Shown piece by piece: positions 2,287 through 9,717 of a stretch of DNA of 64,000 nt (position 1 is the stretch's first letter; each line of letters begins with the position of its first letter). The stretch is from the human T2T-CHM13v2.0 reference genome, Homo sapiens. Made by a program: the position numbers and the translations under genes. Below the pieces are notes generated by a model that made no database searches, was not told where the DNA came from, and saw only the letters and a program-made list of their open reading frames with translations. Location: assembly GCF_009914755.1 (NCBI RefSeq), contig NC_060936.1. One strand, given 5' to 3'.

Positions 2287-3700
2287 TGCTTTGATGAAAT
2301 TTTCAAATGTGAGACCTTCACATTTAAAAAATACATAATTTAAATGGGAAATGCTATTTTGTAACACTTGAATGAACAAATGAAATAAATATTGCATTTT
2401 AAGCTACTTCTGTTTGCCTTTTCTCAGACCACATTTTAAATCAGAAACTATTGGTTATTCTTCAAGTAAGAAAAAGTGAGCAACAAGCTAAATCTTAGAG
2501 GTGTTATAAAAAATTCAGAAGAACTCACTTCTATTGTCTGAAGAAAGAAGAAATCATGAAATCATATTTTTTAAAATTTCACTTTCTGGACATCTACTGC
2601 AATGTGGAATTAACAATTTATAATGATACTTAAATTATTAGAGAAATAACAAACTCTAGCTATTCAGAAACCTAATATTACATGTCACAAAGTCAGTGGA
2701 AATAAGTTGGCATCATAGATACTTAAAATAAACCTTGCCAGAAAATTATTTTTGTTGTTAAAAATTATTTATTTTTCTACAAAACACACAAGTACTATAA
2801 GACATTATTTAAAATAATGTATTCTTTTTCAAAGTTATAGAATAAAATTAAACTAAGAGTGTAGTAATTGCATAGGGGCCATGTATTTGAAGTTGTATGA
2901 GAGGAAGTCATGTCTTATTACTTTCTAATGGGTAAATTAATCAAACTAACTTTTTGTCAAAACATTTTCCCTATTTTGGTTTATTTTATGTACTAATGGA
3001 AAATGTCTAGCTAAAATAGTGATTGGCATTCAATCTAGATTTCTAAAATGATGTGATCATCCGGGTTTTATACCCTACCTTAATTTATGCTCTGGAATTG
3101 GTAACCAGCTCTCATAACTCTTGCTGGTCTGGTAGCTGCCAACTATCAATGAGACATATATAACTGTAAATCACATTGCAGACTGTACAGAAGCACTATT
3201 TCTGAAATAATGCAGCTGAAAATACTGGGTTCCTAAACCCTCTACTGGGATTGATACTAGTTCTTTTGATGATATAAACTCACTTACATTTTGACTTTTA
3301 GACTGGTGTGTAGGTATCAGTCACTTGACACGTGAATATTTCAAATCACCTTCCCCCCAAAAAAGTATTGACTTGTGTCTCATCACTTTTCTATTTTGCA
3401 TACCAGGCAAAGGATATATAAAATATTTTCATCATAAAAGCACAGCATATTTTAATACATTTGCCTCATATGAACATGTGAATATAAAAGATTTATATAT
3501 CATGCAAATTTTTTATTCATCCCAAATTTGATCTTACACTTTTTTAAATAAAAAATATGCATTCCTTTCTAAGAATATACCAGGCATTTTTAAAAACTAA
3601 GTAAATGGATCATCTGACCATTACAATGATTGCAGCTGTATATAAAACAAACATGAGCATTGCAAAATATTCATGTGATTTTACCCTTCTATCGTTTTAC

Positions 3701-4086: not shown

Positions 4087-4170
4087 TCTTTGAAGTTCTT
4101 GATTCTTCTCTTCAAGTTGACCCTCTAAATGTCTCATACGTTCTTCAATATTTCCATGTCTCTCTTCAGC
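4087..4170 (-). CDS. PPFIA2: PPFIA2 coding exon, 84 nt, [28 protein letters not shown] (about aa 423-450)
   Basis: Manual translation; acceptor TTTCTTAACAG, donor AGA|GTATGT. Confidence 0.96.
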
Positions 4171-4597
4171 CTGTTAAGAAATATGAAGAATACACCTGAA
4201 ATGTAAGATTTGGTTAACACTTTTCCTCTAAATAAATTGAAATAAAATGTAAAGCAAGCTACTACCAACTGCAAACATAGTTTTTAAAAAATAAACTTTC
4301 TTCAAACAGGCAGCTGAACAGCATTGCTTGAAATGTGTCAGCTACAAAGGCCTGTTACATCCAAGCATCAGCAAAACATTGGAGTTATTTATGAGCAATG
4401 AAATCAGCCAAATGTAACATGCAGACTGTGCATGGTTTGAACACAAACCTGCCATTGTCCAATCTTAAGCTCCTGAAGCACTGAACTGCACAGATGGTTG
4501 ATTATCAATAAATAAAAGTAACATAATTTTTATAAATGAAAAGAAAAACTTAGATGGATTCTATTTAGCAATAGAAAGTAAAGTCCAGTAGGACTAC

Positions 4598-4684
4598 CTT
4601 CCTACGTATGGAGATCATTTCTTGTAGTTTAGCTTCCATAACATATTGATAATCATCAGATGAGGTAGAAGAGGTTGGATCAGA
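4598..4684 (-). CDS. PPFIA2: Putative alternative cassette exon of PPFIA2, 87 nt, SDPTSSTSSDDYQYVMEAKLQEMISIRRK
   Basis: Long polypyrimidine tract (TTTTGTCCCTCTCCTTTTCCTTGACTCGTTAG), open phase-0 frame, length a multiple of 3, donor AAG|GTAGTC; lies between the ...AALTK and AEERH... exons. Confidence 0.78.
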
Positions 4685-5315
4685 CTAACGAGTCAAGGAA
4701 AAGGAGAGGGACAAAATTGAAAAATCAGAACTAAAGACACTGACACCAAACAGAACATAGCACAGAATGCTTAAAAGAAAAGTGTGACAGCAAATTTAAT
4801 ACTTTAATAGACAGAATTTTATGTGGAAAGAACTACATTGATATTTGGTGAACACGATGCAGTTGATGGTTTTAAATAAAAAACAATAATATACTAAAAT
4901 AAAAAGCTATCAACCTAAGATATGAAAGGTTAGTGATGGCTGGCAATGAAAGACTACTACAGAATGAATAAAGCAACTCTGAAAGAGTTATATAATAATT
5001 GGAATTATGGGAAACCAAACACCAGAATATGTCTCTGATAGATTGTTAAAAGTTTGTATTAGGGTTTGTTTGTCTATATTACTTAAAAATAATGGAAACA
5101 GTAGTTTCACAATGTTGAGGAAAATGCTAGACAATGACTCAGGTGTAATTAATTTGGAACAAAATTTATTCTAAACCTTGCTCTGTAGAAAAAAAGATAA
5201 AAAAACTAAGCCTGGGGGTTATTGTGAGTAGTCCCCAATTCAAGCAAGATTGAGTTTCCTCAGCAACAGGAAAACTTATGAAATGACTTCTGGTCTCTGA
5301 ATGCACACTATGGTC

Positions 5316-9582: not shown

Positions 9583-9717
9583 CTTGGTTAGGGCTGCAAT
9601 TCTCTGAGCCAGTTCAGCCTCTACTTCAGGCAAGGTTTCAGCCTTTCTCATGGTCTGCTGCAACTTTTGTTCAGCTAGCTCAAGACGTTCTTGTAACTGT
9701 CTGTTTTTCTCTTCCAT
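9583..9717 (-). CDS. PPFIA2: PPFIA2 coding exon, 135 nt, [45 protein letters not shown] (about aa 378-422)
   Basis: Manual translation; acceptor CCCATTCCCATTTCAG, donor AAG|GTACTG; in frame with neighbours. Confidence 0.96.

What the first reader, a model, noticed from the sequence alone, without database searches (positions are those of the whole stretch)
4598..4684. Hidden in-frame 87-nt cassette exon inserting 29 aa into the liprin-alpha-2 coiled coil
Seen: on the gene strand, an unusually long pyrimidine tract ends in TAG, followed by an open phase-0 frame TCT GAT CCA...AGG AAG (SDPTSSTSSDDYQYVMEAKLQEMISIRRK) and a suboptimal donor AAG|GTAGTC. It would splice in frame between ...AALTK and AEERH..., and it is too short for the ORF track. 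Recollection, unverified: the canonical protein lacks this peptide, while PPFIA1 has an alternative insert at the same junction with a similar outline (SDP...EAKL.E..S..RK), which would make it an ancient paralogous exon; it may already appear in predicted isoforms. Inference: a Pro/Ser/Thr-acidic hinge (CK2-type S/T-x-x-D sites) plus a short helix would break the coiled coil in the N-terminal region that binds active-zone partners such as RIM and ELKS, acting as a splice switch for scaffold assembly.
Basis: partly seen in the sequence, partly recalled or inferred. Interest (0 to 1): 0.82.

Follow-up and report, generated by a model that had tools for sequence, protein, structure and literature searches.

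The report
Conserved PPFIA2 alternative coding exon
This is a real, very old alternative exon of the synaptic scaffold gene PPFIA2 that adds 29 amino acids inside a partner-binding coiled coil; it is already present in predicted protein isoforms of many vertebrates, and its function is untested.

Summary
On the minus strand, 4684-4598 is an 87-nt open frame. It has a pyrimidine-rich tract and an AG acceptor, a weak GT donor, and sits in phase 0 between coding exons 9717-9583 and 4170-4087. It is not a chance frame. The identical 29-aa peptide is spliced at exactly this junction in every listed hit of two database searches: 120 of 120 bird and reptile isoforms and 120 of 120 mammalian isoforms, including chimpanzee, gorilla, macaque and rat. 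Frog and teleost versions differ slightly. The matching human PPFIA1 intron holds a paralogous 75-nt candidate exon with the same splice-site layout; the PPFIA3 and PPFIA4 introns do not. The insertion falls at K422|A423, 18 residues after the crystallised RIM-binding CC2N segment and inside the ELKS-binding CC2C half. AlphaFold2 predicts an 8-residue non-helical linker followed by an extension of the downstream helix. The skipping form is one continuous helix. So the exon is real but not hidden: it is already in public predicted isoforms, and human RefSeq already annotates its donor. The proposed splice switch remains inference.

The parts
4598..4684 (-). 87-nt alternative coding cassette exon of PPFIA2 (29 aa, P0001), phase 0 at both ends
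   Evidence: The identical peptide sits at this junction in 120 of 120 listed hits (recounted) and 120 of 120 listed hits (by that call's table).
4685..4744 (-). 3' splice site: AG acceptor (part of an in-frame TAG) preceded by a pyrimidine-rich tract of roughly 45-55 nt
   Evidence: It is the only one of 48 open AG..GT candidates in the intron with at least 75% pyrimidines upstream and an AG|GTR donor.
4590..4597 (-). 5' splice site GTAGTCCT. It matches the textbook donor consensus (recalled) at +1 to +3 only, so it is weak. The PPFIA1 copy also begins GTAG.
   Evidence: The hub table lists an exon of other transcripts that ends at 4598.
9583..9717 (-). Upstream constitutive coding exon (P0002), ending in phase 0 at K422
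4087..4170 (-). Downstream constitutive coding exon (P0003), starting in phase 0 at A423
4598..4863 (-). Exon of other RefSeq transcripts (hub table) that shares the donor. Position 4863 is preceded by CA, not AG, so it reads as a first exon (transcription start) rather than an internal exon.
   Evidence: Hub table; (bases 4865-4864)
4637..4639 (-). First in-frame ATG (residue 16 of the cassette). It is a possible start codon for transcripts that begin at 4863. A 21-codon upstream ORF (4758-4693) lies in the same exon.
4418..4423 (-). One TGCATG on the gene strand, 175 nt downstream of the donor. This is the Rbfox-type motif (name recalled). It is not enriched, so it is only a weak lead.
   Evidence: 4 matches in L001 against 2.46 expected; 45 of 200 shuffles reach 4

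Best explanation
Window 4684-4598 (minus strand) is a genuine alternative cassette exon of PPFIA2 (liprin-alpha-2), conserved across jawed vertebrates. Shown: when it is spliced between exons 9717-9583 and 4170-4087, it inserts 29 residues at K422|A423 without changing the frame. That position lies inside the Pfam 'Liprin-alpha-like coiled coil domain 2'. It is 18 residues after the end of the crystallised RIM1-C2B-binding CC2N segment (300-404) and within CC2C (405-542), the half needed for ELKS1 binding. Predicted: the first 8 residues, rich in Ser, Thr, Pro and Asp, form a flexible non-helical linker, and the remaining 21 residues extend the downstream helix. Inclusion therefore turns one continuous helix into helix-linker-helix. 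Inferred, not tested: this loosens the mechanical coupling between the RIM-binding and ELKS-binding halves of the dimeric CC2 coiled coil. It also alters the N-terminal end of the ELKS-binding half and adds phosphorylatable serines and threonines, and so tunes liprin/RIM/ELKS assembly. The weak donor and long pyrimidine tract fit a regulated exon that is mostly skipped. A paralogous 75-nt copy in the same PPFIA1 intron suggests the exon is older than the PPFIA1/PPFIA2 duplication.
For: - **Anatomy and frame:**
- **Conservation, first search:** of the 120 hits listed, 59 span both flanking exons. Of these, 44 skip the cassette and 15 carry an insert at exactly this junction. Eight inserts are identical to human (whale, pangolin, four lizard entries, cobra and the unnamed spliced contig protein P0056). 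One frog insert has one change, two teleost inserts are 29 aa, and four cyprinid inserts are 16 aa. A camel model also carries it.
- **Conservation, birds and reptiles:** one search found 677 proteins at E<=10, and 120 of the 120 listed have the identical insert (recount).
- **Conservation, mammals:** one search found 699 proteins at E<=1e-30. All 120 listed are 100% identical over 100% of the 102-aa region made of upstream exon, cassette and downstream exon. They include chimpanzee, bonobo, gorilla, macaques, marmoset, rat, pig, dog, horse, cattle, bats and whales.
- **Spliced-sequence evidence:** P0056 (397 aa, from a 3,722-nt unnamed contig) joins the cassette to many downstream exons, so it comes from spliced sequence.
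- **Paralogue:** L002:1127-1201 in the PPFIA1 intron aligns end to end with P0001. It has AG and GT at the same places, is phase 0 and shares 49 of 75 nt. Only 3 of 1000 dinucleotide shuffles reach its alignment score.
- **Location:** PF25526 is matched as one stretch in the human skipping isoform and is split in two by the insert in the finch isoform. PDB 8Z22 chain C ends at residue 27 of P0002, which places the junction at 422|423. CC2N and CC2C boundaries and partners come from PMC12151379 (passages).
- **Structure prediction:** in the insert form, residues 46-53 are coil with block pLDDT of 60-72, followed by helix 54-188 at pLDDT above 94. In the skipping form, helix 162-249 runs through the junction at pLDDT 93-95.
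Against: - No human RNA-seq junction counts could be examined, so the inclusion level and tissue in human are unknown.
- None of the 120 names listed is Homo sapiens. That list is cut at 1,261 aa, and identical primate sequences may be shown under one name. The hub table lists 4598-4863 but no separate 4598-4684 exon.
- Nearly all insert-bearing proteins are computational gene models, some of which may have been guided by homology rather than RNA.
- Among unnamed transcript-like contigs spanning the junction (P0056) includes the exon and 4 (P0022, P0065, P0092, P0093) skip it.
- The functional part rests on AlphaFold2 monomer models of a protein that works as a dimer, and on domain mapping done with the skipping isoform.
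- The Ser/Thr-acidic stretch is absent from the cyprinid versions, and the PPFIA1 copy lacks the acidic residues. The helix part, not the hinge, is therefore the most conserved.
- PMC12151379 contradicts itself on which CC2 half binds ELKS1: the main text says CC2C, the S1 Fig legend says CC2N.
Confidence: 0.85

Rival explanations
1. In human the stretch works mainly as part of an alternative first exon (4863-4598) driven by an intronic start site. This would give an N-terminally truncated liprin-alpha-2 that starts at the Met at cassette residue 16 and lacks CC1 and most of CC2. Conservation would then reflect that use, not cassette use.
For: The hub table lists exon 4598-4863 in other transcripts. 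Position 4863 is preceded by CA, not AG, so it reads as a transcript start. An in-frame ATG lies at 4639-4637 with G at -3 and G at +4. That Met is kept in all liprin-alpha-2 versions seen, including the 16-aa cyprinid form.
Against: The 15 residues before the Met are identical from mammals to squamates and birds, which an untranslated leader would not explain. The acceptor AG and pyrimidine tract are kept in the PPFIA1 copy, which has no Met at that position. Hundreds of models splice the exon to the upstream exon. The 266-nt exon holds upstream ATGs, including a 21-codon upstream ORF. The two uses do not exclude each other.
Confidence: 0.08
2. The exon is conserved in genomes and copied from one gene model to the next by homology-guided annotation, but it is rarely or never spliced into productive mRNA. 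That would make it an annotation echo or a relic exon.
For: Most insert-bearing entries are predicted isoforms or 'hypothetical protein' models. The donor is weak. Neither review passages nor splicing-paper passages mention it. The peptide word search found 0 papers.
Against: A relic would not stay 29 of 29 identical across mammals, birds and squamates with intact splice sites. It would also not survive as a recognisable paralogue in PPFIA1. P0056 is a spliced contig that contains it.
Confidence: 0.05
3. It is a chance open frame between a chance AG and a chance GT in a long intron.
For: The intron holds 48 such phase-0 open AG..GT segments of 60-150 nt.
Against: Only this one of the 48 has a strong pyrimidine tract and an AG|GTR donor. 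The peptide is found spliced in at this junction across vertebrates.
Confidence: 0.01

Closest known systems
Predicted liprin-alpha-2 isoforms that already carry this insert (for example zebra finch isoform X1, P0222, insert at 426-454; chimpanzee, gorilla, macaque and rat X-isoforms)
   Same: The identical 29-aa peptide sits at the identical exon junction, so this is the same exon in orthologous genes.
   Different: Those are other species' models. For human, I could confirm only the genomic exon and the hub's annotated donor, not a named human isoform with the cassette.
Candidate paralogous exon in human PPFIA1 (L002:1127-1201 = G000:C11:70347976-70348050)
   Same: It lies in the same intron and is phase 0. 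It shares the same tAG|TCTGA... start, the same ...AGGAAG|GTAG end, a pyrimidine-rich upstream tract and the same outline in the C-terminal helix part. Nucleotide identity is 49 of 75.
   Different: It is 75 nt, not 87 (a 4-codon gap). It has no Met and no acidic residues after the Ser-rich stretch. Its use in transcripts was not shown here (one search gave no relevant hit).
[quoted passage not shown]
   Same: Both are alternative exons in the same gene family that add or remove a partner-binding element.
   Different: Those sites are in the C-terminal half. This exon is in the N-terminal CC2 coiled coil and is not mentioned in the passages I read.
nSR100/SRRM4-regulated microexons in Ppfia2 (PMC4387716 and PMC7821500, single passages read)
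   Same: Both are frame-preserving alternative exons of the same gene.
   Different: Those are microexons adding one to nine residues, not an 87-nt exon. Nothing in those passages points to this exon.
Splice inserts that change coiled-coil behaviour, e.g. the STIM 2-beta variation (PMC6274866; search listing only)
   Same: A short alternative insert inside a coiled-coil region is reported to alter structure and function.
   Different: It is an unrelated protein, and I saw only the title and the start of the abstract. It is an analogy, not homology.

Membership tests
Conserved frame-preserving alternative cassette exon | AG acceptor with a pyrimidine tract, and a GT donor | tested here: met
Conserved frame-preserving alternative cassette exon | Length divisible by 3, no in-frame stop, same phase as both neighbouring exons | tested here: met
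Conserved frame-preserving alternative cassette exon | Peptide conserved in orthologues at the same junction | tested here: met
   15 of the 59 junction-spanning hits; 120 of 120 listed; 120 of 120 listed
Conserved frame-preserving alternative cassette exon | Both inclusion and skipping forms exist | tested here: met
   44 skipping and 15 including among the 59 junction-spanning hits. Both forms are gene models or unnamed contigs, not measured human transcripts.
Conserved frame-preserving alternative cassette exon | Junction reads for inclusion in human tissues | not testable with these tools
Pfam PF25526 (Liprin-alpha-like coiled coil domain 2) as the site of insertion | Both flanking exons fall inside the domain match | tested here: met
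   one stretch, 267-515, in the human skipping isoform. In the finch insert isoform the match is split in two, the first stretch ending at 446.
Alternative first exon / internal promoter | The exon start is not a splice acceptor, and an in-frame start codon follows | tested here: inconclusive
   CA precedes 4863 and an ATG lies at 4639-4637. There are no data on transcription starts, and upstream ATGs are present.
Poison (NMD-inducing) exon | Inclusion shifts the frame or brings in a stop codon | tested here: not met
   87 nt, open, in frame
CK2-type phospho-acidic cluster | Ser/Thr with an acidic residue at +3 (consensus recalled), conserved, and phosphorylated in cells | tested here: inconclusive
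   The pattern is present in P0001 and in the 29-aa teleost versions by reading. It is absent from the 16-aa cyprinid versions and from the PPFIA1 copy. Phosphorylation cannot be tested here.

The most novel reading that the evidence does not exclude
The cassette is an alternative exon older than the PPFIA1/PPFIA2 duplication. It is kept in PPFIA1 and PPFIA2 and absent from the matching human PPFIA3 and PPFIA4 introns. It acts as a regulated hinge 18 residues after the RIM-binding CC2N segment and inside the ELKS-binding CC2C segment. Inclusion would uncouple or re-register the two halves of the CC2 dimer. That would change ELKS binding and liprin/RIM/ELKS co-condensation in particular cell types or developmental stages, a layer of active-zone control that current structural and rescue work, all done with the skipping isoform, has not looked at.
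Probability: 0.25. Interest if true: 0.6.

Novelty: already known. Interest (0 to 1): 0.35.

Why it matters
Liprin-alpha is described as a master organiser of presynaptic active zones, and CC2 is where it binds RIM and ELKS (PMC8044993, PMC12151379). The constructs named in the PMC12151379 passages I read are numbered on the skipping isoform. A 29-residue insert that has not changed from mammals to birds and squamates, placed just after the RIM-binding segment and inside the ELKS-binding segment, is a ready-made natural variant to test in those same assays. As a sequence feature it is not new, because public gene models in many species already contain it. The open question is what it does and where it is included.

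Tried and rejected
- **Whole-genome look with the 29-aa peptide.** It found only the exon itself. The PPFIA1 copy appeared only after I fetched the matching introns and ran a permissive tblastn.
- **PPFIA3 and PPFIA4 introns.** Best local scores were 14 and 25. The only shuffle background I have is for the 1,375-nt PPFIA1 intron (mean 22.5), so I call no copy there.
- **Database search with the bare peptide.** I queried with the upstream exon and with regions of retrieved proteins instead.
- **PDB search with the peptide.** No chain matched, so no solved structure contains the insert.
- **Representative-library search for PPFIA1.** The query was the PPFIA1 open frame, 25 exon-coded plus 34 intron-coded residues. 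The single hit was an unrelated repeat protein matching across the exon/intron boundary. This neither supports nor contradicts use of the PPFIA1 exon.
- **Literature.**
  - A word taken from the peptide matched 0 papers.
  - Zurner and Schoch 2009, the paper most likely to describe N-terminal liprin splicing, is not held, so I cannot say the exon is absent from print.
  - Passages in two reviews and five other papers do not mention it.
  - The searches found nothing specific.
- **TGCATG downstream of the exon.** One copy lies at +175 nt, but the motif is not enriched, so it is only a weak lead.
- **Left out.** A script meant to recount the hits and lay out heptad registers was not run. The one search count therefore rests on that call's own identity and coverage columns. 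Continuity of the coiled-coil register across the insert is judged only from the two AlphaFold2 models.

Full report
**1. The observation**

Read on the minus strand, the window shows a pyrimidine-rich stretch ending in ...TTAG. An 87-nt open frame follows from 4684 to 4598, then the donor AAG|GTAGTC.

The upstream coding exon 9717-9583 ends on a complete codon and the downstream exon 4170-4087 begins on one. Inclusion therefore keeps the frame. The acceptor AG is the end of an in-frame TAG, so the frame cannot run further upstream.

An open frame between an AG and a GT is not remarkable in itself. The 5,412-nt intron holds 48 phase-0 open AG...GT segments of 60-150 nt. Only 1 of the 48, this one, also has at least 75% pyrimidines at -22..-3 and an AG|GTR donor.

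**2. Is it a real exon?**

The protein database turned out to hold vertebrate proteins.

- **Query with the upstream exon (7,369 hits, 120 listed).**
  - 59 of the listed proteins span both flanking exons. Of these, 44 join the exons directly and 15 carry an insert at exactly this junction.
  - Eight inserts are identical to the human peptide: a whale, a pangolin, four lizard entries, a cobra and an unnamed contig protein, P0056.
  - One frog insert differs at one residue.
  - Two teleost inserts are 29 aa and, by my own reading, match at about 20 of 29 positions.
  - Four cyprinid entries carry a 16-aa version that keeps the first two and last fourteen positions.
  - A camel model carries the insert but then skips the next exon.
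- **Query limited to the insert plus six flanking residues on each side.** It gave 677 proteins at E<=10. All 120 listed, mostly bird and squamate predicted isoforms, hold the identical 29 residues between the same flanks (recount).
- **Query covering upstream exon, insert and downstream exon of the mammal-like P0056.** It gave 699 proteins at E<=1e-30. All 120 listed are 100% identical over 100% of the 102 residues. They are named as isoforms from chimpanzee, bonobo, gorilla, macaques, marmoset, rat, deer mice, pig, dog, fox, horse, cattle, bats, shrews and whales.
- **Spliced-sequence evidence.** P0056 is 397 aa from a 3,722-nt contig and joins the insert to many downstream exons, so it derives from spliced sequence.

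A peptide unchanged from mammals to birds and squamates, with working splice sites in each genome, is under strong constraint.

**3. The paralogue**

I located the matching exons of PPFIA1, PPFIA4 and PPFIA3 in the same genome and fetched the introns between them.

A permissive tblastn found one end-to-end match of P0001, in the PPFIA1 intron at L002:1127-1201. It shows 14 of 29 aligned columns identical, one 4-residue gap and E = 0.062 in that small database. The DNA there has a pyrimidine-rich tract, tAG|TCTGA... at the start and ...AGGAAG|GTAG at the end. It is 75 nt long, open and phase 0.

Nucleotide identity to the PPFIA2 exon is 49 of 75. The flanks are no better than 8 of 20 upstream and 10 of 20 downstream. 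The local alignment score is 34. Dinucleotide shuffles of the intron average 22.5 (sd 2.9), and 3 of 1000 reach 34. That test does not count the coincidence of both splice sites.

The PPFIA4 and PPFIA3 introns score 25 and 14, so I call no match there. Whether PPFIA1 transcripts use it I could not test, because the one remaining search returned only an unrelated repeat protein.

**4. Where the insert sits**

- **Domain.** Pfam PF25526, 'Liprin-alpha-like coiled coil domain 2', covers residues 267-515 of a human skipping isoform in one stretch. In the finch insert isoform it is split in two.
- **Numbering.** The junction is K422|A423 in the human isoform. PDB 8Z22 chain C (liprin-alpha-2) ends at residue 27 of the upstream exon. 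The published CC2N construct is 300-404 (PMC12151379, Methods passage). That places the exon end at 422.
- **Partners.** The same paper reports that CC2N binds RIM1 C2B and that deleting CC2C (405-542) disrupts ELKS1 binding. Its S1 Fig legend says CC2N instead, an inconsistency I cannot resolve. A review also names CC2 as the ELKS- and RIM-binding region (PMC8044993, section read).

The insert is therefore 18 residues past the RIM-binding segment and inside the ELKS-binding half.

**5. Predicted structure**

- **Insert form (P0056, with a 21-row alignment).** AlphaFold2 gives helices 2-27 and 29-45, a non-helical stretch at 46-53 (the first 8 insert residues; block pLDDT 60-72), then one helix from 54 to 188 at pLDDT above 94.
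- **Skipping form (P0050, 19-row alignment).** It has a helix from 162 to 249 that runs through the junction at pLDDT 93-95.

These are monomer models of a dimeric coiled coil, so they show tendency and not proof. A heptad-register analysis was not done.

**6. How it most likely works**

- **Shown.** This is a conserved, frame-preserving cassette, and both inclusion and skipping forms exist in gene models.
- **Predicted.** Inclusion replaces a continuous helix with helix, short flexible linker, helix.
- **Inferred.** This loosens the link between the RIM-binding and ELKS-binding halves of CC2 and reshapes the start of the ELKS-binding half. The Ser/Thr run may be phosphorylated.
- **Caution on the hinge.** The most conserved part across PPFIA2 orthologues and PPFIA1 is the C-terminal helix portion. 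The Ser/Thr-acidic stretch is absent in cyprinids, and the PPFIA1 copy lacks the acidic residues. This argues against the CK2-hinge detail being the core function.
- **Regulation.** The weak donor, which matches the recalled consensus only at +1 to +3, and the long pyrimidine tract fit a regulated, mostly skipped exon. The single downstream TGCATG is not significant.

**7. The annotated exon 4598-4863**

The hub table lists this exon in other RefSeq transcripts. Position 4863 is preceded by CA, so it is a transcript start and not an acceptor. The first in-frame ATG is residue 16 of the cassette, at 4639-4637, and an upstream 21-codon ORF lies in the same exon.

Use as an alternative first exon is a possible second role. 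It cannot explain the identity of the 15 residues before the Met, nor the conserved acceptor in PPFIA1, which has no Met there.

Whether human RefSeq also has a 4598-4684 exon I cannot tell. The table may merge overlapping exons. No listed name is human, but that list is cut at 1,261 aa and identical primate sequences may share one entry.

**8. What is known**

The exon is already present in hundreds of public predicted isoforms, so it is not new as a sequence feature.

[quoted passage not shown] For PPFIA2, only microexons are discussed (PMC4387716 and PMC7821500, single passages).

The peptide word search found no paper. The primary paper on liprin-alpha splicing, Zurner and Schoch 2009, is not held. 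Supplementary tables of the splicing papers were not opened. I therefore do not claim that the exon is undescribed.

**9. Verdict**

- **Observation:** confirmed.
- **Interpretation:** right on the exon, its frame, its paralogue and its likely structural effect. It is overstated on 'hidden' and untested on function.
- **Novelty:** already known.
- **Interest:** modest, because it offers a concrete, testable natural variant at the boundary between the RIM-binding and ELKS-binding parts of liprin-alpha-2.

Noticed in passing
window 4266-4345 (minus strand): The hub table lists this as an exon of other transcripts, and it lies between the cassette and the next coding exon. It has an AG before it and GTAGTA after it. 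It is 80 nt, so inclusion would shift the frame, making it a likely poison or non-coding exon.
   Followed up: partly
window 3079-3142 (minus strand): This is another exon of other transcripts (hub table). It is 64 nt and flanked by ...GATAG| and |GTAGGG. It is also not a multiple of 3, so it would shift the frame if included in the coding transcript.
   Followed up: partly
L003 position 185 (G000:C1:202309134), the PPFIA4 intron at the matching junction: The intron begins GCAAGT rather than GT, so it appears to be a GC-AG intron.
   Followed up: no
P0089, P0090, P0096, P0121 (cyprinid liprin-alpha-2-like models): These carry a 16-aa version of the insert that keeps the first two and last fourteen positions and lacks the Ser/Thr-acidic middle. 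It could be a lineage-specific deletion or an alternative acceptor in one duplicated gene copy.
   Followed up: no
P0061 (camel model): The insert is present, but it is joined directly to the exon after next, so the exon equivalent to window 4170-4087 is skipped. This is either a mis-prediction or a further isoform.
   Followed up: no
P0050 (deer model), residues about 124-133: The model has ten extra residues just before the upstream exon's sequence. AlphaFold2 gives pLDDT below 50 at 126-129. It looks like a mis-predicted exon boundary in that model.
   Followed up: no
PMC12151379, main text versus S1 Fig legend: The main text says deleting CC2C disrupts ELKS1 binding and deleting CC2N does not. 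The S1 Fig legend says CC2N is essential for ELKS1 binding. This bears on which partner the insert is most likely to affect.
   Followed up: no
window 4886-4893 (minus strand): A TATA-like AT-rich word lies about 23-30 nt upstream of the annotated transcript start at 4863. The region is AT-rich throughout, so this may mean nothing.
   Followed up: no
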